From positions 1 to 30,066 of the forward strand of contig CABMCB010000085.1 in assembly GCA_902384455.1 (NCBI GenBank): 30,066 nt of DNA, in the 5' to 3' direction. The notes under the pieces were generated by a model. The model saw only the letters and a program-made list of their open reading frames with translations, did no database searches and was not told the DNA's origin. Source of the DNA: an uncultured archaeon (GTDB lineage: Archaea; Altiarchaeota; Altiarchaeia; IMC4; SCGC-AAA252-I15). Below are positions 270 to 18,365 of the stretch, piece by piece. Numbering within the stretch: position 1 is the first letter of the stretch; each line of letters starts with the position of its first letter. A program made the translations under genes and the position numbers.

Positions 270-840
270 CGGCCTAACAGCCCCAATACGCGAACACGTA
301 CACCTCGGCCGCTACCGTATAGTCGCAGACTGGATTAAAGACGAAGGAAAAACAGTCCTCGACATAGGATGCGGCCGACCCTGCCCCACAATGCATGAAG
401 GCGCATTCTTGGACACATTAGGATACGGATTCGGCCTCGACTTAAAACGCTACAAAATAAACCACCCGCTAACGCAGGGCTCAATGACCGCGCTGCCTTA
501 CGCCGACAATTCTTTCGACGCCGTCGTCGCCATGGAAGTGATAGAGCACGTCAAAGACTACCCAACCGCCCTCAAGGAAGTAAAGCGCGTACTTAGGCCG
601 GGCGGAGTCTTTGTTATGACGACGCCCGAAAACACATTCATCGAGACCGCATTCTGGGCGCTTTGGGAAAAAACCGCAGGAGAAATGTGGCACGGAGAAC
701 ACGTAACAAACCTCACCCAACAACAATGGAAGACGGAACTCTCAAAATACTTCAACATAGAAGAATTCAGAAGATACCGCAGAGGACTAAGCCAATTCTA
801 CAAACTACGAAAAGACAATATGGCGGGAGCAAAGAACTGA
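262..840 (+). CDS. Class I SAM-dependent methyltransferase (Methyltransf_11-like)
   Basis: Motif I VLDIGCG, then LPYADNSFDAVVAMEVIEHV and EVKRVLRPGG. Confidence 0.9.
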   Translation: MLDGLTAPIREHVHLGRYRIVADWIKDEGKTVLDIGCGRPCPTMHEGAFLDTLGYGFGLDLKRYKINHPLTQGSMTALPYADNSFDAVVAMEVIEHVKDYPTALKEVKRVLRPGGVFVMTTPENTFIETAFWALWEKTAGEMWHGEHVTNLTQQQWKTELSKYFNIEEFRRYRRGLSQFYKLRKDNMAGAKN

Positions 841-864
841 TTATTCGGGATTGAAGTTCGGGCT

Positions 865-1107
865 TTACTTACTCCTCATCTTAGTTTTCATGTCAAATAT
901 CGCGAGAATCACGCCGACCCCCATCAGACTATAACCCAATAATCTGTCGTCTCCGAAAATGATTCCTGCCAACATAAATCCGAAAGCGAGGCCTGCTAAT
1001 GGGGTGAGCTTTTTGCGTTTTGTGTTTTTCTTTGCGAGAAAAAAAAGTGCGGCGATAACGGCTAAGACAACAATAGATGCGGCGATATATATTTGCGACG
1101 GATTCAC
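865..1107 (-). CDS. Small membrane protein (about 80 aa, three hydrophobic segments)
   Basis: The track ORF 865..1260 overlaps endoQ. GTG at 1107 is preceded by SD-like AGGTGG and gives MNPSQIYIAASIVVLAVIAALFFL-KKNTKRKK-LTPLAGLAFGFMLAGIIFG-DDR-LLGYSLMGVGVILAIFD. Confidence 0.65.
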   Translation of the reverse strand: MNPSQIYIAASIVVLAVIAALFFLAKKNTKRKKLTPLAGLAFGFMLAGIIFGDDRLLGYSLMGVGVILAIFDMKTKMRSK

Positions 1108-1182
1108 GATGCCACCTAAGTTCATTATGCTCCCTAAGTAATTAACGCTAACTTTTACATTCCAATTCTCACCTTCTACTAC

Positions 1183-2418
1183 ATGGTCCTCATCAACGCC
1201 GACTTGCATCTTCACAGCCGCTTCAGCGGAGGAACGAGCGCCGACATGGACGCCTCTCATCTGGCGTCTTGGGGCGAAAAAAAAGGTCTTGATTTAGTCG
1301 GAACCGGCGATTGCACTCACCCGGTTTACCGGCGGATGCTCAAGGAGGAACTGAAGGAAGAAAACGAAGGCATCTACCGGCACGCTCAAAGCGGAAGCCG
1401 CCTCATATACACCACAGAAGTCGAAGACGCACACAGAGTCCACCACGTCATACTACTACCTTCCGCCGACGCAGCAGACGAATTCTCAGAACAACTCGCA
1501 AAACACGCCGACTTATCCATAGACGGCCGCCCCCACGTGAAACTGGAGGCGGCGGAAGTTGTTGACGCAGTCGAATCAGTCGGCGGTTTGATTGGGCCTT
1601 CTCACGCGTTCACTCCCTGGACTAGCATATACAAGGAACACGGCAGCCTACTTGACTGCTACGGAACCGCAAAACGCCACATATCCTTCGTAGAACTTGG
1701 TTTGTCTTCCGACACAGACCTCGCCGACAGAATAGAAGAATTAACTCACTTTTCGTTTCTGACGGCAAGCGACAGCCACAGCCCCCAACCCCACCGCCTC
1801 GGCCGCGAATTCACCCAATTCGAAGTCAAAGAAGTATCCTTTCCAGAGTTAGCCAAAGCCTTCAAACGCGAAGGAGGACGGAAAATAACACTCAACGCCG
1901 GCCTAAACCCCCGCGAAGGAAAATACCACCTTACGGCCTGCACACGCTGCTACAAAAAATACCGGCTACCCGACGCCGCAACACTCAAATACCGCTGCCC
2001 AATATGCAAAGGCCTAATAAAAAAAGGAGTCCTAGACCGAATCAACGAGCTTGCGTCGTGGGATACGCCACACCACCCCCAATGGAGGCCGCCTTACAAG
2101 CACATTCTGCCTCTGCACGAGGCCATAGCTTTGGCTAAGGGAATTAGGAATGCGGCAAGCAAGAAGGTAGGGGACGAGTGGGTGCGTCTCACAGGCAAGT
2201 TGGGGTCGGAAATCAACGTGCTACTGTATGTTCCGCTGGACGACATCCGCGTTTTATCTCCTGACGTAGCCTCAGTGATACAACGGCTGAGGAACGACTC
2301 CCTGCAGTACGTCGCAGGCGGAGGAGGGCAATACGGCCGTCCGACGCTTACGGGAGAAAGAGATGATTTCTACGGTTTGGGGCAGAAGAGTCTGCTTGAA
2401 TATAACGAGACGATTTAA
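1183..2418 (+). CDS. endoQ: Endonuclease Q family PHP-domain nuclease with C4 zinc finger (TIGR00375-like)
   Basis: ADLHLHSRFS, GTGDCTHP, HAFTPW, ELGLSSD, SDSHS, GKYH followed by CTRC...CPIC, and C-terminal GGGGQYG. Confidence 0.85.
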   Translation: MVLINADLHLHSRFSGGTSADMDASHLASWGEKKGLDLVGTGDCTHPVYRRMLKEELKEENEGIYRHAQSGSRLIYTTEVEDAHRVHHVILLPSADAADEFSEQLAKHADLSIDGRPHVKLEAAEVVDAVESVGGLIGPSHAFTPWTSIYKEHGSLLDCYGTAKRHISFVELGLSSDTDLADRIEELTHFSFLTASDSHSPQPHRLGREFTQFEVKEVSFPELAKAFKREGGRKITLNAGLNPREGKYHLTACTRCYKKYRLPDAATLKYRCPICKGLIKKGVLDRINELASWDTPHHPQWRPPYKHILPLHEAIALAKGIRNAASKKVGDEWVRLTGKLGSEINVLLYVPLDDIRVLSPDVASVIQRLRNDSLQYVAGGGGQYGRPTLTGERDDFYGLGQKSLLEYNETI

Positions 2419-2701: not shown

Positions 2702-2758
2702 TTTATTAAGGGGTTCGTCCTAGTCTACCTAAAGTAGGTTATTCTAGGACATCGTCCT
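2702..2758 (+). promoter_or_regulatory. Putative TATA box and inverted repeat upstream of psmB
   Basis: TTTATTAA at 2702-2709, then GTCCTAG(2717-2723)...CTAGGAC(2744-2750) enclosing ACCTA-AAG-TAGGT. Confidence 0.4.
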
Positions 2759-2784
2759 TAGTTAACGTATTCGAGGGGATTCTT

Positions 2785-3411
2785 TTGGAAGAAAAGATAC
2801 TTAAGGGGACTACCACAATAGGGCTTGTATGCAGTGACGGAGTGGTTTTGGCCACTGACCGCCGGGCAAGCTACGGTCATTTTATCGCAAGCAAGACTGC
2901 TAAGAAGGCGTTCAACATAAACAACAAGGTGGCGGCTACTGTTGCAGGAAGTGTCGGCGACGCAGAATCCCTTATGCGCCTTATACAGGCGGAAGCGGCG
3001 CTCTACGAAATAAACAACGGAGAGTCAATGCAGGCCAGAAGCGTGTCTTCTCTTCTTTCCAACATACTTCAGGGAAGCAGAGTGTTCCCCTACCTAGTCC
3101 AGCTGATAATCGCCGGTCAAGACGGCAAAAAATACGCGTTATTCACATTAGACCCCATCGGCGGCTTAATAGAAGAAACATACGCAAGCACGGGCAGCGG
3201 CAGCCCCATGGCGTACGGCATCCTTGAACGCGACTTTAAGGAGAATACGCCGGTGGAAAAAAACCTCGTCATAGCTTTGCACGCGTTGGCGGCGGCTCTT
3301 GCCCGCGACAGCGGCACAGGCGACGGAATGGACTTGTACTCCATCACCGAAGCCGGATTCAAGCAGTACTCCGACGAGGAAGTAAAGAAGATACTGGACG
3401 CCGCAAAGTAA
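2785..3411 (+). CDS. psmB: 20S proteasome beta subunit
   Basis: Short propeptide, then G|TTTIG with the catalytic Thr; DGVVLATDRRAS, AGSVGDA, TGSGSPMAYG, RDSGTGDG. TTG start preceded by GAGGGG. Confidence 0.95.
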   Translation: MEEKILKGTTTIGLVCSDGVVLATDRRASYGHFIASKTAKKAFNINNKVAATVAGSVGDAESLMRLIQAEAALYEINNGESMQARSVSSLLSNILQGSRVFPYLVQLIIAGQDGKKYALFTLDPIGGLIEETYASTGSGSPMAYGILERDFKENTPVEKNLVIALHALAAALARDSGTGDGMDLYSITEAGFKQYSDEEVKKILDAAK

Positions 3412-3494
3412 GACTGCTCTGACGCCTACATTACGGCGTAAGGGTTTGCTAAATATCTAATTAGTGATTCACCTAAAGGCAGAAAAACTCAGCC

Positions 3495-5378
3495 ATGGAA
3501 CTTAAAGAAATAAAACAGCTTCTTGAGGCAAACGGCCCTAAAGACAAGATAACCAAGGTGGACTTGGAGGGGCCTAAAGTCATCGTTTACACCGACGACA
3601 TGCCTTACTTCGTCGATAACCACAATGTCGTGCGGGAGTTGGCAAGCGTCCTGAAGAAGCGCATAATCATCCGTTCGTCACCTGACTCGCGCATGAGCCA
3701 GCCTGAAGCTGAAAAACTCATCCGCGGAATTATTCCTGCCGAAGCGGAGATTGACGAAGTAGTGTTCGACGAAACGTTCGGCGAAGTCCGCATTGAAGCC
3801 GAGAAACTTGGTTTGGTCATAGGGAAGCGGGGCAGCACTCTCGAGGACATAACAAAGCAGACTCGGTGGGTGCCTAAGCTTTTGAGGAAACCGCCGATTC
3901 AGTCCGACATCGTCCGAAGCATGAGGAAAACGCTCCTTGAGAACTCCGAGGAACGCCAGAAGATACTCAAGAGTGTGGGAAAGAAAATCTACCGCAAACC
4001 AGAGCACGAGTGCGACTGGCTAAGGCTAACTCCCCTTGGCGGCGCAGGCCAAGTCGGCAGAAGCTGCTTCCTACTTCAGACTCCTGAAAGCAACGTATTC
4101 TTGGACTGCGGAATCAACGTCGCAGCCCAAGGCACAGACAAATTCCCAGACCTAAGAGCCGCAAACATCGCGCTTACTGAGCTTGATGCGGTCGTTTTAA
4201 GTCACGCTCACATAGACCACTGCGGATTCATACCTTACCTATACCACTACGGCTACGAAGGCCCTGTGTACTGCACTGAGCCCACAAGGGACATAGCAAG
4301 CCTCCTGTTGTTGGATGCTGTGGAGATTGGCGAGTGGGAGAATGAGCAGCTCCCCTACACTCACGTGGACGTGAGGACTTTCATCAAACACTGCATTACA
4401 TTAGATTACGGCGAAGTCGCAGACATAACCCCAGACATACACCTCACGTTCTACAACGCAGGCCACATACTGGGGTCCGCCATAAGCCATCTGCACATAG
4501 GCGAAGGACTACACAACCTCGTCTACACCGGAGACCTCAAGTTCGGAGACACAAGGCTTCTAGAACCAGCAGACTACAACTTCCCCCGCGTAGAAACACT
4601 ACTAATAGAATGCACATACGGAGGCCGACACGACATCGCGCCCAAACGCTTTGAGGCGGAAAAAGCATTCGTAGACATAATCACAAAAACCCTCGGCCGA
4701 GGCGGAAAAGTCATCATACCCGTTTTCAGCGTAGGCCGCAGTCAGGAAGTAATGATGGTTTTGGAGAACGCGGCCCGCTACGACAACTTCAACGTCCCAA
4801 TTTACTTGGACGGAATGATTTGGGAGGCAACCGCTATCCACACGATTTATCCTGAGTTTTTGAAGCGCCCAATTAAGCATCGCGTGTTCAACGGGCAGAA
4901 TCCCTTCCTCATGGACGCGTTCACCAAAGTGAACCCCAAACAGCGCAGCGAAATAATCAACGGTCCGCCGTGCATAATTCTTGCCACAAGCGGAATGATG
5001 ACTGGCGGTCCGTCCGTGGAATACTTCAAGCAGTTCGCTCCGGACGAGAAAAACAGCCTGATATTCGTCGGATACCAGTCGGAAGGAAGCCTGGGGCGCC
5101 GCCTCCAAAATGGGATGCGCGAGTATCTCACGCACGAGAACGGCCGCACCAAGTCTATTCCCGTGAACATGGAGGTTAATACTATCGAAGGGTTTTCAGG
5201 TCACGCGGACCGTAGGCAGCTTTTGGGTTATAAGAAGAAGATTCATCCTAAGCCGAACAGAGTGTTGCTTGTGCACGGCGAGCAGACGAAGCTTCAGCAG
5301 TACAGTCAGGCGGTAAGGGAAATGTTCCGCATAGAGACGACTGCGCCAAGGAACCTCGACACAATGAGGCTTGTTTAA
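3495..5378 (+). CDS. fttA: aCPSF1 / FttA beta-CASP ribonuclease with N-terminal KH domains (transcription termination factor)
   Basis: KH motif GLVIGKRG, GGAGQVGRSC, MBL motif SHAHIDH, AGHILGSA, FSVGRSQE, GFSGHAD, VHGE. Conserved archaeal synteny with psmB. Confidence 0.93.
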   Translation: MELKEIKQLLEANGPKDKITKVDLEGPKVIVYTDDMPYFVDNHNVVRELASVLKKRIIIRSSPDSRMSQPEAEKLIRGIIPAEAEIDEVVFDETFGEVRIEAEKLGLVIGKRGSTLEDITKQTRWVPKLLRKPPIQSDIVRSMRKTLLENSEERQKILKSVGKKIYRKPEHECDWLRLTPLGGAGQVGRSCFLLQTPESNVFLDCGINVAAQGTDKFPDLRAANIALTELDAVVLSHAHIDHCGFIPYLYHYGYEGPVYCTEPTRDIASLLLLDAVEIGEWENEQLPYTHVDVRTFIKHCITLDYGEVADITPDIHLTFYNAGHILGSAISHLHIGEGLHNLVYTGDLKFGDTRLLEPADYNFPRVETLLIECTYGGRHDIAPKRFEAEKAFVDIITKTLGRGGKVIIPVFSVGRSQEVMMVLENAARYDNFNVPIYLDGMIWEATAIHTIYPEFLKRPIKHRVFNGQNPFLMDAFTKVNPKQRSEIINGPPCIILATSGMMTGGPSVEYFKQFAPDEKNSLIFVGYQSEGSLGRRLQNGMREYLTHENGRTKSIPVNMEVNTIEGFSGHADRRQLLGYKKKIHPKPNRVLLVHGEQTKLQQYSQAVREMFRIETTAPRNLDTMRLV

Positions 5379-5471: not shown

Positions 5472-6827
5472 CTAGCAGACTTTGGGCAGTTTTTTGAGTG
5501 ACTCTTTTATTTTTTCTTTGGGGTACTCGTAGTCTGTCAGTTTGCCTTCGAAGTATCTGTCGTAGCTTCCTAGGTCTATTAGGCCGTGTCCGCTTAGGTT
5601 GAATAGGATCGTTTTTTCCTCTTTCTTTTTCTTGCATTCCAGCGCGTGGTCGATTACGCTTTTTATTGCGTGCGCTGACTCTGGCGCGGGAATTATGCCT
5701 TCGGTTCTTGCGAACTTGACTGCCGCGTCAAATACTTCAAGCTGGTTGTAGGATTCCGCATTCATTACTCCCAGCTCGGTTAGGTGGGATACGAGCGGCG
5801 CCATCCCGTGGTAACGCAGGCCTCCTGCGTGTATTCCCGGCGGCATGAAGTCGTGGCCTAAAGTGAACATCTTCAAAAGCGGCGTGAGTCCTACCGTGTC
5901 GCCGAAGTCGTATGCGAATTCTCCTTTAGTGAGGCTTGGGCAGCTTTTGGGTTCGACTCCTATGAAATCGATGTCGTGGCCGTCCAGTTTGTCTTTGACG
6001 AACGGGAACGAGATTCCGGCGTAGTTGCTTCCTCCTCCCACGCATCCGATAACTATGTCGGGGTGTCCTTCGCCCGCCATCTGAAGCTGTTTTTTCGCTT
6101 CAAGGCCGATGACTGTCTGGTGGAGCAATACGTGGTTTAAGACGCTTCCCAATGAGTATTTGGCGTCGTCGTGTGTGGCGGCGTCTTCAACCGCCTCGGA
6201 AATCGCTATCCCCAAGCTTCCTTGGCTGTTGGGGTCTTTGGCGAGTATGGTTCGGCCTGCGTTCGTCTTGTTTGTGGGGCTTGGGAATACCTCGGCGCCC
6301 CAAGTCTGCATCATGCTTTTTCTGTACGGCTTTTGTTCGTAGCTGACTTTGACCATGTAGACTGTGCATTTGAGTCCGAAGAATGCGCATGAGAATGCGA
6401 GTGCGCTTCCCCATTGGCCTGCGCCTGTTTCAGTCGTGATTCGTGTGGTGCCAGCTTTCATGTTGTAGTATGCTTGGGCGACTGCTGTGTTTGGTTTGTG
6501 GCTGCCTGGCGGGCTTACTCCTTCGTATTTGTAGTAGATTTTCGCGGGAGTCTTAAGTAGTTTTTCGAGGCGGTGTGCGCGGTATAACGGTGAGGGTCTC
6601 CATAGGCGAAGTATGTCTCTGACTTCTTCGGGTATGTCTATCCAGCGTTCTGTGGAGACTTCTTGTTTGATGAGCTCCATGGGGAATATTGGTGCTAGGT
6701 CTTGTGGTCCTGCTGGTTTGCCTGTGGCCGGGTTCAGCGGCGGAGCAAGCGGCTTAGGCAGGTCTGCTTGGATGTTGTACCATTTTTTAGGCAGGTCGTT
6801 TTCGTCAAGAAGAATTTTTGTTTGCAT
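5472..6827 (-). CDS. trpB2: Tryptophan synthase beta chain type 2 (TrpB2)
   Basis: GSHKPNTA (PLP Lys), [40 protein letters not shown]-terminus [13 protein letters not shown] is typical of TrpB2. Confidence 0.95.
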
Positions 6828-7013
6828 GATATCACCTATGCCCTCCTATTGCTCGCCAACCTTTTTATACATAAATGACGGATTTTCGACAATCGGTTTG
6901 TTGCCTGCCCCCAGTCGGTCCACATGCGTTCGGTCGCATCGAAAGCCGACAATGTGCATGAACGCCCACGAAACCCATATTTAGTCAGAATCTTCCCAAA
7001 ATACATCCACTCA

Positions 7014-10000
7014 ATGACGACAGAAGAGGTTCACCGAAGGCGAAGGCAATATGCGCCCAGTCCGGCGGTAGACGACATGATCCGCGCAGGCGACCCCATG
7101 CGGTTTGAGTTGGGGCCGGTGCCATATATACCAGAGAACAAATTCGAATACGTCACCTTAGACCAAATCGACGAAAGATTCCATTGCAAAGCCGCATTAA
7201 TCAGAGACCTACGGGCGGCCGGATTCCAAAAACCCCAGGCGCTGCGCTACCAAATAGAGGAGGGCGTCATAAGCAAGACTAGCCGCGGGATTGCCGCCAT
7301 CAACGTCTACACAGACCAAGACATGGTGACGACTGAACACCGGACAATGCGGGAGCCCGTCATCATCAACATGGCGGCCCGCTACCTAGTGAAGCAGCCA
7401 ATCGAAGGCGAAGTTACCGTCCAAAAATGGGCGGCAAGCCGCGACATGGCCCCCCTCCTGCTATCCTCTGGCAGTAACGAGTCTGACGGAGAATTTCTAA
7501 TCGAAAGTTACGAACGATACAAATCGGGACTCGTAGACTCCGGCAAAACCCTCACAATGGCTCAAGCCGAGGAATTCGGAAAAACCCTCGGAAGACATGT
7601 GGCCACTATGGTAGACAAAGGAACTCTATACGACTTCGGAAGAAGGCCCTTCACCCACACGCGGGTGAATCCTCTTCAGGACGGCACTACTGAAGTGCAC
7701 CTCATCGACTGGGGGAACGCAATACGACTTCAGGGGCGCCAGCAAGCAGACGTTGATGCACTCCTCCTTCACCAGTTTCGGGACATAGCCATAATGTGCC
7801 GGATGACGAGTTATGTGACGGGCCCCAGAGTTTGGCAGGCGTTCACTTCCGAATTCGTTTCTCATGTTTCACCTGCAGGTAGGGGTGATGCTCGTACTTG
7901 GGAGACGGCTCGCGTGAGAGGTCATAGGGAGCGGTTGTGGGCTCAGGAGCTTGTTCAAGGCACAGTCGACTCCCTTTTGAGCGTCGAAGACGCCCGCGCG
8001 CGCAGGAGCTGGTCGGCATTCTTCCAGCGGGCATCCGGTCAGCGGGCTCTAGCCTCCCGCGAGCTGCGTCCTCAGGAGCGTGAGGAAGTCGCCCTCTCAG
8101 AGTTAGTTCACGAGCGGCTTAGGGATCAAGCTGAAGGGCTTGATAGGAGCGCGACTGAAATCACGCGGGACGCTTATGCGAGGATTCGAGCGTTCAATGA
8201 AGAGGCAGCTGATGAAGACCGCCTCAACCCACTAAGAATGGGCGTCCGCGCCCAAAGGGTGAACTTTGAGGGCAAGGATGTAATTGAGGTTACTGTGAAT
8301 CGGCCCGAGCCCCGCAACACCACCTTCCTCACGTACTACGTGTTCACGGGCGCAGACGTGCAAAGAAAGCTTATCACAGTAACAGAGGGTGTCGGCAGGA
8401 AAATCGTCTATGCAGACGACGCTAAGACCCAGCTAGTGATGCGCAAGCAGTACGAGCCTATAAGTGTTTTCAGAGACGCGCCTGCGCATGTCGCTGAGGA
8501 ATTAGGTGAAGGAATCGCAGTCTTACTTGCGCGCGCCGCAAGAAGGGGCTTCACGTTAAGGCAACACTATGAGAACGACCTCCTTGTTAACCCAGAGGGC
8601 GGGTGGGAAGTAAAAGCGAGGAACCTCGAGGCTAATTCAATGTACGATCCCGACGCAATCACAGAGCAGGTGAAAGCAGCAGCCAGCCTTTGCCGGTCAA
8701 TGTCGTTGGGCCTTGTTGCGTGGAAGACCTTCTCTTTGACGCTTCCCCCCAGCGCAACCACTGTTGCAGAGGAGGCGATATACCGGGAGGCTCTTGGTAG
8801 AGCCGAGCACGACCTTTGCTTAAGCAGCAGTGGATGGAAGCAGTTTTTTGACGATGCGCGGGTGGTTATGTGGGATAACCCTGAAGTATCTAACCGTCAC
8901 CGTCAGTTCCTCGAATACAAGGAAGAGCAAGACCCCCTCGTCTTGTACGACCCCAGCAATCTCAGTCTTCTTATGGCGACCGAGCCCGTCGCAGCGCAGG
9001 TGATAGAAACATTCAGGCGCATGGGGATGGTTGATTGTCCCTGGCGTTCCATTCCCCACTTCCACGTAGGCATTCCGATAAGGGAAGAGCCTCACGAGAA
9101 TCTTTTAGCCGACGCCAGGATGGGGAAGGTAGATTTCACCCAAGATTACTCTTTCCTCATTGAGGTGGGCAGGTACGAGTGGCGGACGAGGCTCAGGAAC
9201 GAGAGTGTTTCTGATACGCGGTACCTTATCCCCGTGCGGGACGGAAGGGTTCAGACGCCAATACCCCTTTCAGCCAAAGACACAATCGAGGATAAGGGAT
9301 ACATCTTTCCGGCAGACTTCGATGCGTACCTGGTTCCGTCAGGCGAAGGCATGAGCTACTCCTTCTCGTGGGACGAACGAGCGTTCGCCGGCATGCCACC
9401 CGCGCTTGAGGACCTATCCCGCGCACTCGGCACCCGCCAAAGCTCAGCGCTAACAGAAGGGGAACGCGACCGCTACTTGCCGCTCCTAAGAAGGATCACC
9501 CACGAGCAGAGACTCTCCGCCACATGGGAAACAGTCGAGCAGACCGCGCTCTCTGAGTACACCGGATCATGGCGACCTATGCTCGCGGCGTGCAGGCGGA
9601 CAGTCGACGGAATGGAAGACTTCGACGACCGCTACAGATTCTTGGTGGGCGTAGACATTCCCCCGAGAGTAGCAGACGAAATAGGTCAGGGGCTTGTCGC
9701 GGCGTTGGATCCTCAGAGCCCAAAGCTTCTGGCGAAAACGAGGGAGGAACGGGGCGAAGTGGATTATTTCCAGCTATACCGAGAAATTCCGGAGGCTCTA
9801 GACGCAACGATAGCGCAAAGCTACCCCCTCTTCAGGGAGAATATTGAGCTTTTACTCACCTCACAGAAAGCATTACCCAAAGTCCGCAATAAGGAGCGAG
9901 AGCTGGGGCGGCATCTAACTCCCGCGGAATACGTCGAGCTTGTGGAGGGCGAGCAGCGCGTCATCCTGAAAGGTGACCGGCCTTCAGAGTACATAAGACG

Positions 10001-11063
10001 CATACGGTATATGCAGAACTTGAGCAGATACGTCCTCTACATGTCGTTCAACGTGGTGGGTGAACGTGACCCCCATGAGGTCGTAGTAAAGAGGGATAAC
10101 CTCGCAAGTGACCTTGTAATATCAAGCGTCTGCGAAGTTTTGGGCCACAAAACGTCCCGTTCTCTCCCAGTGACTTTACACTGGGGGCTTGAAGAATTCG
10201 CCAGAGGGCAGACGCCTGTTGAAAATCCGGCAGCGCTACTCTCGGACCCGGTGAAGGCAGACCGCGTAGTGAGGACGGCCGGCGAGTACGCCGCGACAAT
10301 CATTAGCATCCCCGTCCATCCCCACGCAGGCAATTTCATCCTCGACGAGAGGGCTCAGGCTACGCTCATAGACCTGGAAGTGGAGAACGTAGGCCAACAT
10401 AGGCATGATCTTTATCCAGACCTAGGCTACCATATAGGATGGGGCGTTATGCCTCTTCTTGAGTTGCACCCTGAATGGAATCCGCAGGCGAATCCAGACG
10501 GCTCCAAGAAAGTGTGGCGGCTGTTCAAAGAAGGGCTTGAGGTCGGCCACAAGAGATACCTGCAGGAGCGGGAGCATGTGCAGCAGCTCATCCACGAAGG
10601 CGTGGTATCCGGCGCCCTAAGGGTGAGTGAAGAAGGCGTTATGACGCGCCTTGACATCCCCCCCGCAAGTCGCCTGAAAGATACAGTACTCTACGTCGTA
10701 GAGGCCTTTGCGGCCGGCGTGGACTTCTCACGGAGCGATTCATTAGAGACTTTCTGGGATAATTTGCCGCCCTTCTGGAAATGGGCGGCTGAGGATGCGG
10801 GTGTCAGGTCATTTGATGTCAGGTGGCAGGAGGTTGTTGACGACACCACAATCGGAAGGGAGATACTTCAGCAGCAGCCAGACCACATTGCCCTCAGGGG
10901 GGCTGGACGGCTTGAGGACTGGGAGAGGGCAGCCCGGGAAGCAGAACGGGCTCAAAGTGTATGGCTCAGACCCCAACTTCGGGAGGGTGAAGAGCGTAGG
11001 GGGATAGCGATCTTCGACAAAAAGACGGGTAAATTCCTTCGGTACGCATACGAAGGGGACTAA
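7014..11063 (+). CDS. Large hypothetical protein (~1350 aa) with three degenerate protein-kinase-like modules
   Basis: Long uninterrupted ORF; ATG 7014 preferred, ATG 6924 possible. Motifs LVK...FLIESY...HVATMVDKG...VHLIDWG, an internal repeat of this unit, and VVVK...GLEEF...HPHAGNFIL...LIDLE. Confidence 0.75.
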   Translation: MTTEEVHRRRRQYAPSPAVDDMIRAGDPMRFELGPVPYIPENKFEYVTLDQIDERFHCKAALIRDLRAAGFQKPQALRYQIEEGVISKTSRGIAAINVYTDQDMVTTEHRTMREPVIINMAARYLVKQPIEGEVTVQKWAASRDMAPLLLSSGSNESDGEFLIESYERYKSGLVDSGKTLTMAQAEEFGKTLGRHVATMVDKGTLYDFGRRPFTHTRVNPLQDGTTEVHLIDWGNAIRLQGRQQADVDALLLHQFRDIAIMCRMTSYVTGPRVWQAFTSEFVSHVSPAGRGDARTWETARVRGHRERLWAQELVQGTVDSLLSVEDARARRSWSAFFQRASGQRALASRELRPQEREEVALSELVHERLRDQAEGLDRSATEITRDAYARIRAFNEEAADEDRLNPLRMGVRAQRVNFEGKDVIEVTVNRPEPRNTTFLTYYVFTGADVQRKLITVTEGVGRKIVYADDAKTQLVMRKQYEPISVFRDAPAHVAEELGEGIAVLLARAARRGFTLRQHYENDLLVNPEGGWEVKARNLEANSMYDPDAITEQVKAAASLCRSMSLGLVAWKTFSLTLPPSATTVAEEAIYREALGRAEHDLCLSSSGWKQFFDDARVVMWDNPEVSNRHRQFLEYKEEQDPLVLYDPSNLSLLMATEPVAAQVIETFRRMGMVDCPWRSIPHFHVGIPIREEPHENLLADARMGKVDFTQDYSFLIEVGRYEWRTRLRNESVSDTRYLIPVRDGRVQTPIPLSAKDTIEDKGYIFPADFDAYLVPSGEGMSYSFSWDERAFAGMPPALEDLSRALGTRQSSALTEGERDRYLPLLRRITHEQRLSATWETVEQTALSEYTGSWRPMLAACRRTVDGMEDFDDRYRFLVGVDIPPRVADEIGQGLVAALDPQSPKLLAKTREERGEVDYFQLYREIPEALDATIAQSYPLFRENIELLLTSQKALPKVRNKERELGRHLTPAEYVELVEGEQRVILKGDRPSEYIRRIRYMQNLSRYVLYMSFNVVGERDPHEVVVKRDNLASDLVISSVCEVLGHKTSRSLPVTLHWGLEEFARGQTPVENPAALLSDPVKADRVVRTAGEYAATIISIPVHPHAGNFILDERAQATLIDLEVENVGQHRHDLYPDLGYHIGWGVMPLLELHPEWNPQANPDGSKKVWRLFKEGLEVGHKRYLQEREHVQQLIHEGVVSGALRVSEEGVMTRLDIPPASRLKDTVLYVVEAFAAGVDFSRSDSLETFWDNLPPFWKWAAEDAGVRSFDVRWQEVVDDTTIGREILQQQPDHIALRGAGRLEDWERAAREAERAQSVWLRPQLREGEERRGIAIFDKKTGKFLRYAYEGD

Positions 11064-11434
11064 TGATGGACGAAAAAGTTGATCAGACGGTGAAGACGGC
11101 GACACTTAAGGCAGTGATGGACGCGACTGACGCCCACAAGGAACTCATCCTTACCCACATCAACAGAGGCATCTTCTCCACGGCGATGCTGCTCCTTCCG
11201 TACGACCGAGAAATCGAGCTGGACGACAACCTGAAAGAGAAGCTCAAGTTCACCTCTTTGCGCAGGAACATGAGGAACCACGTATACTCACTCGACCTAA
11301 ACGAACTTTGGTTACATCTTTCCCGCGATGAAATCGAGTCCTTCTTCAGGGAAGTCTTTGACCAGACGAAGCAGGCGAGGGTGCTCATCGGCGACAGGCA
11401 AATCTCCTACATCTCGCGCTCCCTCTTCCTCTGA
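11063..11434 (+). CDS. Hypothetical protein (123 aa), translationally coupled to the giant ORF
   Basis: TAATG stop/start overlap at 11061-11065, purine-rich AAGGGG upstream, coding-like codon usage. Confidence 0.7.
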   Translation: MMDEKVDQTVKTATLKAVMDATDAHKELILTHINRGIFSTAMLLLPYDREIELDDNLKEKLKFTSLRRNMRNHVYSLDLNELWLHLSRDEIESFFREVFDQTKQARVLIGDRQISYISRSLFL

Positions 11435-12007: not shown

Positions 12008-12280
12008 TTACTTCTCAATTTTCCTTTTTCCCAAGTATCCTGCGTCCCACAGTTCAATCGAGGCCGCTTCTAGGAATCTTTTGTCTGTGGGTTGTATCGT
12101 GTATGGTCCTGTTTCTCCTGTCGGTTTGATTGTGAGTGGGCGGGTGAGTAGTTGCGTTAATTGCCGGTCGTCTGATTCTACGACGACGCCTTTGCCTTCC
12201 TCAAAGCGGGCTGTGCCGGCAGGTTCTACTACCGGCTCTTTCGCAGTTCCCTTCACCCTGTAAAACTCGTATGAACTCAT
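12008..12280 (-). CDS. Hypothetical protein (90 aa), coupled to the upstream metallopeptidase gene
   Basis: ATGA overlap at 12277-12280 with the upstream stop; SD-like GGGGTGA a few nt before the ATG. Confidence 0.7.
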   Translation of the reverse strand: MSSYEFYRVKGTAKEPVVEPAGTARFEEGKGVVVESDDRQLTQLLTRPLTIKPTGETGPYTIQPTDKRFLEAASIELWDAGYLGKRKIEK

Positions 12281-13725
12281 TTTGTCACCCCCGAATCCAA
12301 AGCTTTTCCTAAATCCTTTCCTACCGCAGATAAGTCAACGTGACCCTCTAATTCTCTATCCCGCGCATCCAAAACTTTTTCTATTAATGCGTTAACGTCT
12401 CCCTGCGGATTAGCCTGCATAACTCCATTGAAATCATACGTGTAAGTAACGCCTGCCGCAGGGTCAGTGAAAACATTATCCATCATCCACCTAACCTTCT
12501 CCATCAGCACAGGATCACCCATCCTCTCCCGAGTTCTCGCTCTATGCAACAGAGGCCTGCAGTCACCCGTATACTCCCCATAAAGAGTGGCGAAATCCTC
12601 AACCGGATTCTTAATGCCGTACTCCCTCGCAACCGAAGTCGCAGGAGGCCTGACCCATCGTTCATCCGGCATCAGTTCAATGGTGTCATAATCCCTTATG
12701 TCCCTTTCACTACCTCCTTCCGTCTGTACTCTCCATCCTCCTAGACTTGCAAATTCTGCAAACTTCTCGTTACCCAAAAAATGGTGATGTACCCCGTGCG
12801 CGGTCTCATGGTGTCCAATTTCAGAAGTAAAAATGTTTGGTGAAACAGAGCGGATTCTCCTTAAACCATAATCATAATCCCCTCCTACGCCGCCCCATTC
12901 ACTGTTTCTCTCATCAGATTCCTTATACGTGTCTCTAAACACTCCCCTAACCAAAAGCCTGTTTTGCCTAAGATGGGGCGGAGTATTCTCAAGAAAATTT
13001 CTTACCTGATCAACTTCCTCCTCAGTGAACCTAACAGGCCCATCTATGACCGAAACACCAAACTCCTAAAGTATCGCCACCCTCTTTTCACCCCCTGGCA
13101 TAGCAAGAAGATGAGGTTTAGCAGCCTCTCTGAAAGTTTCCTCAACAACCTGAATCCTCTCAGGAGTAACTACGCCAGGCATTCTAGGCGAACCCGGACT
13201 AACACCCTCAGCTGACACGGCCGTAAGAAGTAAAAGTCCGTCTCCCATTGCTCCCACACCCACGGCCAAGTCTGCCATTTGTTGGTCTATGTCTCTGCGA
13301 GCTTCTGGAGTCAAAACAGTGTTCTCGTTTAGTTCTCTGCGAAGACGGTCTAAGCCGCCGAATTGGTTTTGTATCCCCCTTGTGAGGTAGTCCAAGTCTA
13401 TGGTACCCCCAGCAAGACGGCTAAAATCAAATTCATACTGTTCTAAGTCGATTACTCGAGACGGTGCGGCAACTCTTCCTGTGCGAACTGCTGGTGTTAA
13501 AGCGCTTCCGGCATTTCGTGCGGAACCAGTAATCGTAGATTCTGCTGTCTGAACGGGAGGTGACAGGTTATTTACTCCTAACCTAAGCGGTTCAGGGAGG
13601 TTAGGGTGAGAAGTAGGCGTCTGACCTAACGGAAGCAACTCAGGAAGCTGGAGTTCCGCCTGAGCCAGGTCCGGAGGCACAACAGCCTGCTGCTTTTTGA
13701 CGACTACCTCATTCGGATTGCCCAT
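12277..13725 (-). pseudogene. Zincin (HExxH) metallopeptidase gene of 482 codons interrupted by one in-frame TAG at 13066-13068 (nonsense allele or readthrough)
   Basis: Track ORFs 13066..13725 and 12277..12954 are in the same frame, and the intervening codons are open: KRVAIL*EFGVSVIDGPVRFTEEEVDQVRNFLENTPPHLRQNRLLVRG. HETAH at 12796-12810, and YGIKNPVEDFA carries a likely third-ligand Glu. Confidence 0.7.
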
Positions 13726-15869: not shown

Positions 15870-18365
15870 ATGAACCTTCCTAAGGTTACCCTTATTCTTG
15901 TCATACTTTTTTTGTCTAGCCCCTTCGGATTGGCACAAAACCCCTGTGATAATTTCCCGAATGAAGACTTACACATCTTAACCGATGAAACAGTTATCAA
16001 CGTTACCCCAGTCAACTACCTCCAAGGGTCGTATCTCCCTACTGGTTGGGAGATTCTCTCTCAAGGGCTTGTCGACGAAAAAATATTTGAAGATTCTGTA
16101 CGTAAAGACGGCATTGTTGCAACCACAGATTTTCTACCTCAAAAATTTACTGGCGCCTACTCCCAAGTGCTATACACCGGAACTGATAAACTCTACGTCC
16201 TCATAGAATCATTTACCTCTGAAGAATATGCAAACAACGTCCTTAACAAATACTACCCTGCATACAGAGAAGCGGGCAATATCCACAACTTCGATTCAAT
16301 CCAAGAAATAGGCCGCAGAGCGTTTATCTGCCAGTTTGAAGGCACCCACGGAACGTGGGTAATGAAATTCATAGATAAGAAAAATCGATTAATCGAAATA
16401 GACGGATCCAAAAAAGAGGACCTAGAATCCATTGGTCAAGCATACGACACAATTAGTTCCTCAGTTTCTACCACGTCCACACACAAATGGGAGGCCTATG
16501 TTTGTAAACCAAATACTGACGCATGCACCCAGCATATCTACTTCAGTCCAATCTACGAGGATGTTGAGTTGACTGAATGTAGGACATATAAGAATAACGA
16601 CACAATCACTTGCCCAGATAGAAGAATAGAGAAATACGCAAGTAGCATAACAGTTCCTTTTCCGTCATGCGAGAAAGGCGACATTCTCTCATTGAGTTAT
16701 ACCAAAGATACTCAATTTCCGATTAAAGGGCGCATATGGAGTCCAACAGACTTCTATCTCCAGGACGAGTATCCCTCTCAAAATATAGTGTTGGACGTGA
16801 TTGTCCCAAAGTCAATGAATCTCCAGTACGATAGTGCGATTTCCCCTCAAATAACTAATGAAGGCGAGCAAACAACGTACAGGTGGGCTGTACATAATGT
16901 AGGTCCGTTAAAAACTGAACCATATATGCCAAAAATAAATGAAGTTGTACCTACCGTAACTTTTTCTTCGGTCGCCTTATGGAGCGAAGTAAAGGAGTGG
17001 GCTACTCCCCTATTCAACGAGAGCATTGATAGTGATGCAGTAAAAAGTATCCTCCCCCCTGTAGTCAGTCCTTCAGATAGCAAAAATGACAAAATAACTA
17101 AGATATACGAGTGGGTCCGGGATCAAGTTCGCTATGAGGAGTCAGAGATAGGTTTCCTCACTGGATACAAGCCACATCAAACTAAAGAGATTCTCAACTA
17201 CCGTTTTGGTGACTGTAAAGATAAAACGGTTCTACTCGCTTCAATGCTTAAGGCAAATGACATACCTGCGTATCCGGTAATTGTCAGTCGCAGCGATATA
17301 AACAAAAAGGTGCCAACGCCGTATGCTTTCTACCACGCCATTATAGCCATTTCAAATGGCACTAATTACATATGGCTTGATCCCACATGCTCTTTCTGTC
17401 CAGCTGGCTATTTGCCCCCCAGCGAACAAGACGTTGATGTTCTAATTCTTGCTGACCATCAGCCTGAATTTATAAAAACACCTGTATTGGCTGATGATGA
17501 ATACGCTCAAACAGAGAACAACTACTCTATTGAAGTCCATGAGGACGGAAGAGCAGACATCTTTCTAACCTCAAAGTCGGCAGGATACTCTGCATTGATA
17601 CTGCGAAAACAACTTAATGAGCGTACAAACAAAGAGCTAGAAGAATTACTTGTGGATATGGTAACTCCCTACTGTTCTAACTTCCAGTCCTCCTCCCATA
17701 GGATATTAGACTCCGATTCCCTTCTTAGTCTAACTTTAGAAGTGCGAGGTACATGCAAGAAATTTGCAGATGTATCCGGCGAGAAACTTATTTATAACAT
17801 GCCTCATGAGAATTTGTATACCTCTGTCGCTACAGAAAGGAGAGTCTTCCCGATTCAAATTGACAAAGACACTACAGAAAAAACAAAAGTTCTGATAGCA
17901 ATCCCTGCAAATTACGCAGTCGAGGTTATACCCCAAAATTACGCCGAAAAAACGTCATTCGGAAATTATGAGTTCAACTGCAAGAATACGGACAAACTCA
18001 TTGAGTGCGACCGCTTTTTCCATATGAACAAAACTACCTTGGCGGCAGGGGATTTCACAAGCTTTAACGAATTTTTCAAGGGAATAAACACCCGCGACAA
18101 AGCGGTGATACTGTCCCATTCAAGCAGCAGTAGTAGCTATACACCTAGCACTACTTCTACTGCGATTACTCAGACCACTGAACATACTTTACAAAGCACG
18201 ACACAATCAAATAGCTCATCTCCACCAGCAGACAAAAATGAAGTTACTACTGCTCCCAGCAACTTATCAAAATACGCTGTATTCTGTATTGCGGCTATCA
18301 TTATTCTAGCACCCATACTCAAACTATCACTAAATCACAAAAAACATAAGCCCAAAAAAAAGTAA
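15870..18365 (+). CDS. Membrane-anchored transglutaminase-like protein (DUF3857/Transglut_core/DUF3858-type architecture)
   Basis: Signal peptide; catalytic triad motifs GDCKDK, FYHAI and WLDPT; Ser/Thr linker, C-terminal TM and basic tail. Visibly more AT-rich than its neighbours. Confidence 0.85.
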   Translation: MNLPKVTLILVILFLSSPFGLAQNPCDNFPNEDLHILTDETVINVTPVNYLQGSYLPTGWEILSQGLVDEKIFEDSVRKDGIVATTDFLPQKFTGAYSQVLYTGTDKLYVLIESFTSEEYANNVLNKYYPAYREAGNIHNFDSIQEIGRRAFICQFEGTHGTWVMKFIDKKNRLIEIDGSKKEDLESIGQAYDTISSSVSTTSTHKWEAYVCKPNTDACTQHIYFSPIYEDVELTECRTYKNNDTITCPDRRIEKYASSITVPFPSCEKGDILSLSYTKDTQFPIKGRIWSPTDFYLQDEYPSQNIVLDVIVPKSMNLQYDSAISPQITNEGEQTTYRWAVHNVGPLKTEPYMPKINEVVPTVTFSSVALWSEVKEWATPLFNESIDSDAVKSILPPVVSPSDSKNDKITKIYEWVRDQVRYEESEIGFLTGYKPHQTKEILNYRFGDCKDKTVLLASMLKANDIPAYPVIVSRSDINKKVPTPYAFYHAIIAISNGTNYIWLDPTCSFCPAGYLPPSEQDVDVLILADHQPEFIKTPVLADDEYAQTENNYSIEVHEDGRADIFLTSKSAGYSALILRKQLNERTNKELEELLVDMVTPYCSNFQSSSHRILDSDSLLSLTLEVRGTCKKFADVSGEKLIYNMPHENLYTSVATERRVFPIQIDKDTTEKTKVLIAIPANYAVEVIPQNYAEKTSFGNYEFNCKNTDKLIECDRFFHMNKTTLAAGDFTSFNEFFKGINTRDKAVILSHSSSSSSYTPSTTSTAITQTTEHTLQSTTQSNSSSPPADKNEVTTAPSNLSKYAVFCIAAIIILAPILKLSLNHKKHKPKKK

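What the first reader, a model, noticed from the sequence alone, without database searches (positions are those of the whole stretch)
7014..11434. Giant triple (pseudo)kinase protein with a coupled small partner: candidate archaeal effector/toxin-immunity pair
Seen: module 1 (~7371-8033) has YLVK (beta3 Lys), E...A....AP, FLIESY, G..LGRHVATMVDKG..YD and VHLIDWG, the order of a Bud32/Kdo/RIO-like kinase but without a canonical HxDxxxxN loop. Module 2 is a degenerate copy. Module 3 (~10071-10379) has VVVK, GLEEF, HPHAGNFIL and LIDLE, resembling the PI3/PI4-kinase/HipA-type DxHxxN...D motif with the catalytic Asp replaced by His. A 123-aa ORF is coupled by TAATG. Established: degenerate kinase folds can catalyse other chemistry (SelO AMPylation, SidJ glutamylation), and toxin-immunity pairs show this layout. 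Inference: a multi-kinase-fold host-interaction or conflict protein that I cannot assign to a named family.
Basis: partly seen in the sequence, partly recalled or inferred. Interest (0 to 1): 0.75.

Follow-up and report, generated by a model that had tools for sequence, protein, structure and literature searches.

The report
Triple kinase-fold archaeal protein, small partner
An uncultured Altiarchaeota archaeon encodes a roughly 1,350-residue protein made of three kinase-like domains, always followed by a tiny overlapping partner gene; the pair belongs to a rare, fast-evolving, unnamed family whose cellular job is still unknown.

Summary
One ORF (6924/7014..11063, +) and a 123-aa ORF (11063..11434) share TAATG. 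No Pfam, NCBIfam, PADLOC or PHROGs model matches either protein.

AlphaFold2 models (pLDDT 85.8 and 82.2) show three kinase folds. Modules 1 and 2 best match Bud32 (Z 13.2; 12.2), then MTR kinase, WaaP and RIO. Module 3 best matches PI4KIIIbeta and Vps34 (Z 15.4; 14.0).

Module 2 is a true duplicate of module 1 (hhalign 99.5%, E 7e-23). In this copy it has lost its Lys, His and Asp motifs. Module 3 reads HPHAGN where relatives read GDxHxxN, so the catalytic Asp is His.

The family is rare: 61 hits among 1.84 billion representative proteins, and 7 of 21 genomes of one Altiarchaeota family. It diverges fast (38% identity where FttA keeps 68-72%). A congener carries a clean 4.16-kb deletion of it.

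The small gene follows all 6 module-3-bearing copies whose downstream DNA is available. A co-fold with the C-terminal half gave weak support (0.56; best control 0.00).

The neighbours are housekeeping genes and codon usage is native. The toxin-immunity or effector reading is therefore not supported, though a conflict role is not excluded. I read it as a new accessory multi-kinase-fold complex of unknown substrate.

The parts
6862..6870 (+). TATA-like TTTTTATAC upstream of the operon. A second AT-rich box, ATATTTAG, lies at about 6977-6984, some 30 nt before the 7014 ATG. Both are putative archaeal promoter elements.
   Evidence: Read directly from the sequence. No experimental or statistical support; this is inference only.
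7014..11063 (+). Large gene: 1349 aa from M31, or 1379 aa if read from the ATG at 6924. The database model starts at 7077 (1328 aa).
   Evidence: The homologue's N-terminus aligns to M31.
7143..7985 (+). Module 1 (aa 74-354): Bud32/RIO/WaaP-like kinase fold. It keeps K157, E163, D237, H245 (in the Asn position) and D262 (IDWG).
   Evidence: AF2 model. VIA match to 4ww5_A: Z 13.2, 207 aligned, rmsd 4.2. Motif table. Register against Bud32 and Rio1.
7986..8252 (+). Helical linker between modules 1 and 2 (aa 355-443).
   Evidence: AF2 secondary structure.
8253..8831 (+). Module 2 (aa 444-636): a duplicate of module 1 with a kinase fold. It is degenerate here: no beta3 Lys (YYVFT), no His, and the DW segment is deleted.
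   Evidence: hhalign of module 1 against module 2: 99.5%, E 6.7e-23, 181 columns. VIA matches 3en9_A Z 12.2 and 8k20_B Z 11.8. Motif table.
8841..9710 (+). Middle region (aa 640-929): helices, a confidently modelled alpha/beta domain (about aa 700-830, PWRSIPHFHV) and a helical stretch. The fold is unassigned. Part of it (aa about 674-834) also occurs in TPR-bearing giant proteins of a sister family.
   Evidence: AF2 model. The fold search barely tested this part. Profile matches.
9711..10748 (+). Module 3 (aa 930-1275): PI3K/PI4K-like kinase domain. It keeps K1056, N1137 and D1150 (LIDLE).
   Evidence: VIA matches: 8q6f_A Z 15.4 (279 aligned, rmsd 5.4), 2x6f_A Z 14.0, 8so9_A 12.7, 8oxm_A 12.1. 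Foldseek top hits are PI3Ks at E 4e-6 and giant-virus PI3K/PI4K.
10317..10334 (+). Catalytic-loop hexapeptide HPHAGN (aa 1132-1137). His1132 occupies the Asp position of the GDxHxxN motif seen in relatives.
10749..11060 (+). C-terminal tail (aa 1276-1379). It is partly low-confidence and ends in a small conserved beta-sheet (RG..I.DK.TGK..R..Y.GD).
11063..11434 (+). Small partner gene (123 aa). Its start overlaps the large gene's stop (TAATG). GC3 is 0.758.
   Evidence: Co-fold with the C-terminal half: weak support.

Best explanation
This is a two-gene operon for a cytoplasmic, non-essential multi-kinase-fold complex. It is specific to one family of Altiarchaeota and evolves quickly.

Shown or strongly supported:
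- The large protein strings together a Bud32/RIO-like kinase module with a full nucleotide-binding set (K157, E163, D237, H245, D262), a degenerate duplicate of that module (a pseudokinase), a helical and alpha/beta middle region, and a PI3K/PI4K-like kinase domain.
- In the PI3K/PI4K-like domain the catalytic-loop Asp is His (HPHAGN), while the Lys, Asn and metal-binding Asp remain.
- The 123-aa gene is an obligate companion of the module-3-bearing forms and is tightly coupled to them.

Inferred:
- Module 1 is the ATP-binding engine or sensor.
- Module 2 is a scaffold or regulatory pseudokinase, as in JAK-type tandems.
- Module 3 is the output domain. In this clade it is either catalytically silent or uses non-canonical chemistry.
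- The small protein is a subunit bound to the C-terminal half.
- The N-terminal tandem behaves as a portable cassette, because relatives join it to other output enzymes (GlnE/GlnD-type nucleotidyltransferase, HD, enolase).
- The whole is most likely an ATP-dependent regulatory or signalling device. Its evolutionary pattern suggests a response or conflict system rather than core metabolism. The substrate is unknown.
For: Folds: AF2 gave pLDDT 85.8, pTM 0.72 for aa 31-700 with 42 sequences, and pLDDT 82.2, pTM 0.73 for aa 640-1379 with 17 sequences. All 50 rows listed for the N-half are kinase-fold proteins, led by Bud32. For the C-half, PI4K/PI3K/PIKK entries lead by about 3-4 Z units over other kinase folds. 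Foldseek agrees.

Duplication.

Motifs: K, E, H and DW of module 1 are conserved across most of the 46 aligned relatives. Module 2 lacks them in P0001, P0004, P0015 and P0017. In module 3, D of DxHxxN is present in 8 of the 17 rows (16 distinct proteins; P0003 duplicates the window's). It is H in three proteins (P0001, P0004, P0017), I in one, E in one, and the loop is otherwise rearranged in three.

Weak sequence links in the same register: Rio1 E 0.11; own Bud32; Kdo E 3.8e-4, PI3_PI4_kinase E 3.7e-3 and DUF4135 29.4 bits in relatives.

Partner: it lies downstream of the large gene in the window, G007, G013 (two loci), G014 and G009 (split over two contig ends). That is 6 of 6 module-3 copies with downstream DNA available. 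The start overlaps the stop in 3 of 5 complete junctions and lies 3-6 nt away in 2. Divergence is parallel: partner 39/21/18/17% against large protein 38/21/20...%. Co-fold: 0.56 (runs 0.56, 0.61, 0.55), best control 0.00, partner pLDDT at least 75, runs sharing at least 45% of contacts, verdict 'weak support'.

Accessory nature: present in 7 of 21 family genomes and 12 of 61 in the phylum, the 5 outside the family being partial matches. Two paralogues in G013. A 4160-bp deletion in G019.

Cassette behaviour.

Native codon usage: GC3 0.62, against 0.59-0.64 for the adjacent core genes.
Against: - No activity, ligand or substrate is shown. Everything on function is inference from fold, motifs and distribution.
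- The models rest on shallow alignments (42 and 17 sequences).
- The fold of the middle region and that of the small protein are unassigned.
- The co-fold pass is weak (0.56 lies in the band where passes are often wrong), and only the C-terminal half was tested.
- Module 1 lacks a canonical HxDxxxxN loop, and D237 is conserved only in part of the family, so even module 1 may not transfer phosphate.
- In three genomes the pair sits beside sugar-nucleotide genes, which could point to a metabolic role instead.
- The G019 deletion comes from a 57%-complete MAG and could be an assembly or population variant.
Confidence: 0.45

Rival explanations
1. Toxin-immunity or toxin-antitoxin pair, or secreted effector. 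The large kinase-fold protein would modify a target in a competitor or in the cell itself, and the 123-aa protein would neutralise it.
For: - The layout fits: a small gene immediately downstream and overlapping.
- The pair diverges fast (38% identity against 68-72% for FttA).
- Presence is patchy, with paralogues.
- The pair is dispensable.
- Degenerate kinase folds can perform other chemistry (general knowledge, recalled).
Against: - No secretion or trafficking domain, toxin domain, HTH antitoxin or defence family was found.
- HipA is only a Z 8.3 match, against 15.4 for PI4K.
- The partner lies downstream, not upstream as HipB does.
- The neighbours are housekeeping genes with no mobile-element genes.
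- Codon usage is native.
- Altiarchaeota are, by recalled knowledge, hosts rather than symbionts.
- In G019 the deletion removed the large gene and also truncated the partner, rather than leaving an intact orphan immunity gene.
Confidence: 0.12
2. Anti-virus or anti-symbiont defence system. The N-terminal tandem would sense an infection cue (nucleotide-dependent) and switch a C-terminal effector. In relatives the effectors are swapped (NTase, HD, enolase-like, or an adjacent TPD nuclease-like gene).
For: - The N-terminal cassette is joined to variable C-terminal domains.
- The G020 relative lacks module 3 and is followed by a TPD-domain gene.
- The family diverges fast, has paralogues and is patchily distributed.
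- A natural deletion exists in a congener.
Against: - No PADLOC model matched at E<=0.1.
- No neighbouring defence genes were seen.
- The position is conserved beside UDP-glucose dehydrogenase in three genera, which suggests long vertical residence rather than a defence island.
- The domain fusions are seen only in distant relatives of unknown organisms.
Confidence: 0.2
3. Small-molecule, glycan or lipid kinase of the cell envelope. An example would be phosphorylation of a sugar, a lipid-linked glycan or an inositol lipid, as WaaP/Kdo kinases and PI kinases do.
For: - The fold neighbours include WaaP (Z 10.1), MTR kinase (Z 12.1), APH and choline kinases, and PI4K/PI3K lipid kinases.
- In G007/G019, G013 and G014 the pair lies next to UDP-glucose dehydrogenase. 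In G007/G019 and G013 it is also near NTP-transferase and epimerase genes.
Against: - In the window the neighbours are unrelated: a TrpB-like gene and DJ-1/PfpI.
- This copy lacks the catalytic Asp in module 3.
- The protein is absent from 14 of 21 family genomes, as far as their assemblies show.
- No membrane-binding segment was tested.
Confidence: 0.15
4. Housekeeping paralogue of Bud32 or RIO, working in tRNA t6A synthesis or ribosome maturation.
For: The best fold match is Bud32. There is weak profile similarity to the genome's own Bud32 and RIO-type kinase.
Against: - A canonical Bud32 scoring 173 bits against a cut-off of 125 lies elsewhere, at C9:18560-19132.
- The window protein matches no NCBIfam model at E<=1.
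- Presence is patchy and a natural deletion exists.
- The protein is 1349 aa with extra domains.
Confidence: 0.03

Closest known systems
Bud32 (KEOPS atypical kinase/ATPase) and RIO kinases
   Same: Modules 1 and 2 share the compact kinase fold (4ww5_A: Z 13.2, 207 of 236 residues aligned; 3en9_A: Z 12.2; Rio2 9.7; Rio1 9.2). The beta3 Lys, alphaC Glu and an IDWG metal-binding motif are present, as in the genome's own Bud32.
   Different: They are not orthologues: there is no TIGR03724, Pfam RIO1 or Kdo match. The catalytic-loop Asn is replaced by a conserved His (the TH motif) and the loop is longer. The module occurs in tandem inside a 1349-aa protein. Module 2 is degenerate in this copy.
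PI3K/PI4K catalytic domain (PI4KIIIbeta, Vps34, p110, PIKKs)
   Same: Module 3 has the same fold, including the helical lead-in (Z 15.4, 14.0, 12.7, 12.1). Relatives carry GDxHxxN and a downstream Asp in the PI3K/PI4K register. The beta3 segment K-x-D-N-L-x-x-D resembles the PI3K K-x-x-D-D-L-x-x-D motif; that comparison is recalled, not tested.
   Different: PF00454 does not match this protein at E<=1. The catalytic Asp is His here, and the DFG reads D-L-E. No C2, RBD or ABD domains were recognised. The organism is an archaeon. Lipid-kinase activity is untested.
Pseudokinase-kinase tandems (JAK/TYK2 JH2-JH1) and the Vps15-Vps34 complex
   Same: An inactive kinase fold sits beside kinase folds in one assembly. 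TYK2 JH2-JH1 appears among the Foldseek hits (4oli, E 1.2e-4). By recalled knowledge, a protein-kinase-like subunit regulates a PI3K-type domain in Vps15-Vps34.
   Different: No sequence relationship was shown. The order and number of modules differ. The analogy is architectural only.
HipA-type toxin kinases (HipBA)
   Same: HipA has a DxHxxN-type catalytic loop and a kinase-like fold. It appears in the match list (5k98_A, Z 8.3).
   Different: The match is far weaker than for PI4K. No HipA Pfam model matched. There is no upstream HTH antitoxin. The large protein is three times HipA's size.
LanM/class II and III lanthipeptide synthetase kinase-like domains (DUF4135)
   Same: LicM2 scores Z 10.9, CylM Z 8.6 and CurKC Z 9.4. 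One distant relative, P0059, reaches 29.4 bits on DUF4135 against a cut-off of 29.
   Different: No lanthipeptide cyclase domain or precursor genes are present. The window protein itself has no DUF4135 match.

Membership tests
Protein-kinase-like (PKL) fold superfamily | Bilobal kinase fold | tested here: met
   All three modules have it. Z 13.2, 12.2 and 15.4, on models with pLDDT 85.8 and 82.2.
Protein-kinase-like (PKL) fold superfamily | beta3 Lys and alphaC acidic residue | tested here: met
   Module 1 has K157 and E163. Module 3 has K1056 with the conserved D1063. Module 2 of this copy lacks the Lys.
Protein-kinase-like (PKL) fold superfamily | Catalytic-loop Asp with Asn five residues later (D-x4-N) | tested here: not met
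   Module 1 reads YDF....TH, with His in the Asn position. Module 2 has lost the motif. Module 3 reads H-P-H-A-G-N: the Asn is kept and the Asp is replaced by His. Fold membership stands, but canonical catalysis is doubtful.
Protein-kinase-like (PKL) fold superfamily | Metal-binding Asp (DFG equivalent) | tested here: met
   D262 (IDWG) in module 1 and D1150 (IDLE) in module 3. The segment is deleted in module 2.
Bud32 (KEOPS) | Match to the Bud32 equivalog model TIGR03724 | tested here: not met
   No NCBIfam match at E<=1. The genome's Bud32 is at C9:18560-19132 and scores 173 bits.
Bud32 (KEOPS) | Association with Kae1 and Cgi121 | not tested
   No Kae1 or Cgi121 gene is visible among the window's Pfam-annotated neighbours. 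No binding test was done.
PI3K/PI4K catalytic domain (PF00454) | Profile match to PF00454 | tested here: not met
   Zero families at E<=1 for the window protein. Only the distant relative P0059 gives a sub-threshold 17.6 bits against a cut-off of 27.1.
PI3K/PI4K catalytic domain (PF00454) | Fold of the catalytic domain | tested here: met
   8q6f_A: Z 15.4, 279 aligned, rmsd 5.4. 2x6f_A: Z 14.0. Foldseek E 4e-6.
PI3K/PI4K catalytic domain (PF00454) | Catalytic loop GDRHxxN and DFG Asp | tested here: not met
   This copy reads VHPHAGN, with Asp replaced by His. Eight relatives have GDxHxxN. The downstream Asp is kept.
HipA/HipB toxin-antitoxin | HipA_C profile match and an upstream HTH antitoxin | tested here: not met
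   No Pfam match. The partner is downstream and has no HTH match. The fold match is only Z 8.3.
Polymorphic toxin-immunity pair | N-terminal secretion or trafficking domain and a C-terminal toxin domain | tested here: inconclusive
   No such family was found in Pfam, NCBIfam or PADLOC. Absence of a profile match does not exclude a novel domain.
Polymorphic toxin-immunity pair | Cognate small gene immediately downstream | tested here: met
   The layout is met. The same layout equally fits a structural subunit.

The most novel reading that the evidence does not exclude
The pair is an archaeal, single-polypeptide counterpart of a regulated PI-kinase assembly. Protein-kinase-like modules (one live, one dead) would control a PI3K/PI4K-type domain with the help of a small subunit, acting on an inositol lipid or a protein of the unusual Altiarchaeota envelope. 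This would be a prokaryotic analogue, or distant relative, of the Vps15-Vps34 logic. The HPH variant of the catalytic loop would carry out non-canonical chemistry instead of being dead.
Probability: 0.06. Interest if true: 0.9.

Novelty: new variant of a known kind. Interest (0 to 1): 0.62.

Why it matters
The three folds are known, but the combination matches no curated family in Pfam, NCBIfam, PADLOC or PHROGs. That combination is a tandem Bud32/RIO-like pair, a PI3K/PI4K-like domain and an obligate 123-aa partner.

The PI3K/PI4K-type fold is recognisable here only by structure. If active, it would add a deep-branching archaeal lineage to a kinase class mostly discussed in eukaryotes.

The N-terminal tandem recurs in other unnamed proteins with nucleotidyltransferase, HD or enolase domains. 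It may therefore define a new portable sensor or regulator cassette.

The clade-specific Asp-to-His change offers a natural test of what the DxHxxN loop needs. The natural deletion allele in a congener offers a ready-made comparison for function.

Tried and rejected
- Profile libraries: Pfam and NCBIfam at E<=1, PADLOC at E<=0.1 and PHROGs at E<=0.01 gave nothing for either window protein. Pfam on 8 close relatives and 3 partner homologues gave only sub-threshold noise.
- PDB by sequence: nothing for the single protein. With profiles, only non-significant rows appeared: Rio1 E 0.11, a protein kinase E 0.22, Tel1 E 0.55.
- The search for homologous proteins found only one homologue of the large protein and none of the small one. 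The small one's relatives came from scanning loci.
- The search for related loci: alignment A2 had no conserved stretch (an error). A1 in genome contigs found only the G007 record. Two metagenome scans found nothing. Genomic context for the 50-odd metagenomic relatives is therefore unknown.
- ESM Atlas: no usable hit for the small protein (its own model has pLDDT 0.50), and no Atlas model for the large one.
Their folds remain unassigned.
- The PEP-utiliser-like 970-aa divergent neighbour in G007/G019 does not co-occur with the family, so that link is rejected.
- Sequencing runs: only one DNA holder with a 0.06 share of words, and no RNA holder listed.
- tblastn of module 3 against 50,697 phage records found no match.
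- hhalign of module 3 against modules 1 and 2 was not significant (probability 1-3%).
- Literature: three searches (listings and abstracts only) showed no description of such a protein. One query was rejected for syntax.
- The listing of cluster members showed that the 10 relatives examined are singletons or doubletons from metagenomes, named 'hypothetical protein' or not named at all.

Full report
**What is there.** The window is a whole 30,066-bp contig (G000:C85) of a 2.4-Mb archaeal MAG that is 91.9% complete. Its FttA/aCPSF1 is 62-69% identical to proteins labelled Candidatus Altiarchaeota or Altiarchaeales, so I take the organism to be an Altiarchaeota archaeon. The closest homologue's record is labelled only 'Methanobacteriota archaeon'.

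An ORF runs from 6924 to 11063 (+, 1379 aa). A 123-aa ORF runs from 11063 to 11434, and the two share the A of TAATG. All the quoted motifs are present.

The neighbours are ordinary: proteasome beta, FttA, a TrpB-like PLP enzyme, DJ-1/PfpI, ArgG, ArgH and pyrimidine genes. The large gene's GC3 (0.62) is like that of the adjacent core genes (0.59-0.64). The small ORF's GC3 is 0.758.

**No named family.** Neither protein matches Pfam or NCBIfam at E<=1, PADLOC at E<=0.1 or PHROGs at E<=0.01. Neither matches PDB sequences.

**Relatives.**
- The word-indexed search found one homologue (P0004, 1358 aa, 37-39% identity, full length).
- Whole-genome searches found matches in 7 of 21 genomes of the same family, and in 12 of 61 genomes of the class, which equals the phylum as held. 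The 5 hits outside the family are partial matches.
- G013 and G009 each hold two copies.
- A profile of nine family members, scanned against 1.84 billion representative proteins, found only 61 proteins at E<=1e-3 and 30 at E<=1e-30.
- The ten I looked up are metagenomic singletons or doubletons, either unnamed or called 'hypothetical protein'.

**Folds.** I folded aa 31-700 with a 42-row alignment (pLDDT 85.8, pTM 0.72) and aa 640-1379 with 17 rows (pLDDT 82.2, pTM 0.73).

In an all-against-representatives structural search of the N-half:
- Module 1 (aa 74-354) best matches Bud32 (4ww5_A: Z 13.2, 207 aligned, rmsd 4.2).
- Module 2 (aa 444-636) also best matches Bud32 (3en9_A Z 12.2; 8k20_B Z 11.8).
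- Next come MTR kinase, PsiK, WaaP, Rio1/2 and APH.
- All 50 listed rows are kinase folds.

For the C-half:
- Module 3 (aa 930-1275) best matches PI4KIIIbeta (8q6f_A: Z 15.4, 279 aligned, rmsd 5.4).
- It then matches Vps34 (14.0), PI3Kgamma (12.7), ATM (12.1) and PI4KIIIalpha (12.0).
- Further down are actin-fragmin kinase (11.4) and LicM2 (10.9). Bud32 (9.7) and HipA (8.3) rank lower.

Foldseek agrees. PI3Ks lead at E 4e-6, with 284 hits at E<=1e-3. Giant-virus PI3K/PI4K proteins lead the viral library. For the N-half, PI3K, the TYK2 tandem and RNase L come at about E 1e-4.

The region aa 640-929 holds a confidently modelled alpha/beta domain and helices, but the fold search barely tested it. 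I could not fold it alone.

**Duplication and decay.** Profile-profile comparison of module 1 and module 2 sub-alignments gives 99.5% probability, E 6.7e-23 over 181 columns. Module 3 is not detectably similar in sequence to either of them.

Across relatives, module 1 keeps the beta3 Lys, the alphaC Glu, a TH motif and DW. Weak alignments to Rio1 (E 0.11) and to the genome's own Bud32 put the conserved His where kinases have the catalytic-loop Asn. They put D237 where kinases have the catalytic Asp, but D237 is conserved only in part of the family.

In the window protein and its three closest relatives (P0004, P0015, P0017), module 2 has lost the Lys and the His, and the DW segment is deleted. 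Many more distant relatives keep them.

In module 3 the Lys (K1056), Asn (N1137) and Asp (D1150, in IDLE) are nearly invariant. Of the 17 rows at the catalytic loop (16 distinct proteins, since P0003 duplicates the window's), the loop reads:
- GDxHxxN in eight;
- GEGHxxN in one;
- HPHxxN in P0001, P0004 and P0017;
- IPHxxN in P0015;
- otherwise rearranged in three.

The position varies (H or I) within that clade while the following Pro-His is invariant. This suggests that the canonical base has been given up.

**The partner.** Scanning all loci with a profile of the small protein finds it directly downstream of the large gene in the window, G007, G013:C14, G013:C25 and G014. In G009 it is split between a contig end and a contig start. 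That is 6 of 6 module-3-bearing copies whose downstream DNA is available.

The G020 relative (1016 aa) lacks module 3 and is followed by a TPD-domain gene instead. Two further copies are cut by contig ends.

The junctions are TAATG, ATGA and ATGA, then 3-nt and 6-nt spacers. The partner diverges in step with the large protein (39/21/18/17% against 38/21/20...%).

A co-fold of the C-terminal half with the partner gave 0.56 (runs 0.56, 0.61, 0.55) against a best control of 0.00. The partner's pLDDT was at least 75 and at least 45% of contacts were shared between runs. The tool's verdict is 'weak support'. The N-terminal half was not tested.

**Accessory and fast-evolving.** FttA is 66-72% identical between G000 and G007, G013 and G014. 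The large protein is 38%, 21% and 25% identical. Even so, the G007, G013:C14 and G014 copies sit at the same place, beside UDP-glucose dehydrogenase.

In G019, a congener of G007, the locus is collinear at 92-95% identity. However, 4160 bp are missing, from codon 5 of the large gene into codon 31 of the partner. The junction reads MHKK|GIFDTAV. This is a natural loss of the gene, with the caveat that G019 is a 57%-complete MAG.

**Architecture in relatives.** The tandem of modules 1 and 2 recurs at the N-terminus of roughly 1250-aa proteins that end in GlnD_UR_UTase or GlnE domains (7 proteins). It also recurs with HD, enolase and WD40 domains. A piece of the middle region recurs in TPR-rich giants of the sister family. 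This makes the tandem look like a portable module attached to varied outputs.

**Interpretation.** What is shown is a rare, unnamed family of three-kinase-fold proteins with an obligate small companion. The family is non-essential and diverges quickly.

I infer an ATP-dependent regulatory complex. Module 1 would be the working nucleotide site and module 2 a pseudokinase scaffold. Module 3 would be an output domain that, in this clade, is silent or non-canonical. The small protein would be a subunit on the C-terminal half.

The toxin-immunity or effector idea is not supported by any domain, context or composition signal, though the evolutionary pattern leaves a conflict role open. An envelope sugar- or lipid-kinase role is suggested by context in three genera but not in the window. 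A housekeeping Bud32 or RIO role is unlikely, because the genome has its own Bud32 elsewhere.

**Novelty.** Three literature searches (listings and abstracts only) showed no description of such a protein. I rate it a new variant of a known kind: the folds are known, while the architecture and the partner are new and the function is unknown.

Noticed in passing
L034 (G019:C55) about 5676-6105, compared with L016 6064-10223: A congener of the closest homologue's genome carries a clean 4160-bp deletion. It removes the large gene from codon 5 onward and the first 30 or so codons of the partner. The remaining chimeric ORF begins MHKK-GIFDTAV. The flanks are 92-95% identical.
   Followed up: yes
L014 (G005:C33) 2711-4015 (-); proteins P0041, P0054, P0056: A full enolase gene lies divergently next to the G005 family member. 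Three distant relatives carry the module-1/2 domain fused to enolase domains. This may be a functional link or a coincidence.
   Followed up: partly
L013 (G020:C127) 535-1284 (-): The 1016-aa relative that lacks the PI3K/PI4K-like module is followed by a TPD-domain protein (PF14811, E 1e-40) instead of the small partner.
   Followed up: partly
G050:C5, G038:C46, G033:C55 (loci L033, L031, L030): The sister family holds giant open frames (8729, 2655 and 2480 aa) with TPR repeats. These share a roughly 150-residue stretch with the middle region of the window protein (aa about 674-834).
   Followed up: no
window 12277-12954 (-), with 12008-12280 (-) and 13066-13725 (-): A 225-aa ORF with no Pfam match contains an HExxH motif (GHHETAHGVHH), which suggests a metalloprotease. 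Its stop overlaps the start of a 90-aa ORF, and another orphan 219-aa ORF lies upstream.
   Followed up: no
window 15870-18365 (+): An 831-aa transglutaminase-like protein with DUF3857 has a GC content of 41.6% (GC3 0.41), well below the contig mean of about 50%. It may be foreign DNA.
   Followed up: no
G009:C48 start and G009:C103 start: The small partner of G009 is split between the end of one contig and the start of another, so these two contigs adjoin in the genome.
   Followed up: partly
G000:C9:18560-19132 (L035): The genome's canonical Bud32 uses IDWG as its metal-binding motif, the same tetrapeptide as module 1 of the large protein.
   Followed up: partly
BFVD hit L7TJZ0 (row 15): A haloarchaeal tailed virus (HSTV-2) protein annotated as a PI3K/PI4K catalytic domain is a weak structural match (E 3.2e-3). 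PI3K/PI4K-type domains therefore also circulate in archaeal viruses.
   Followed up: no
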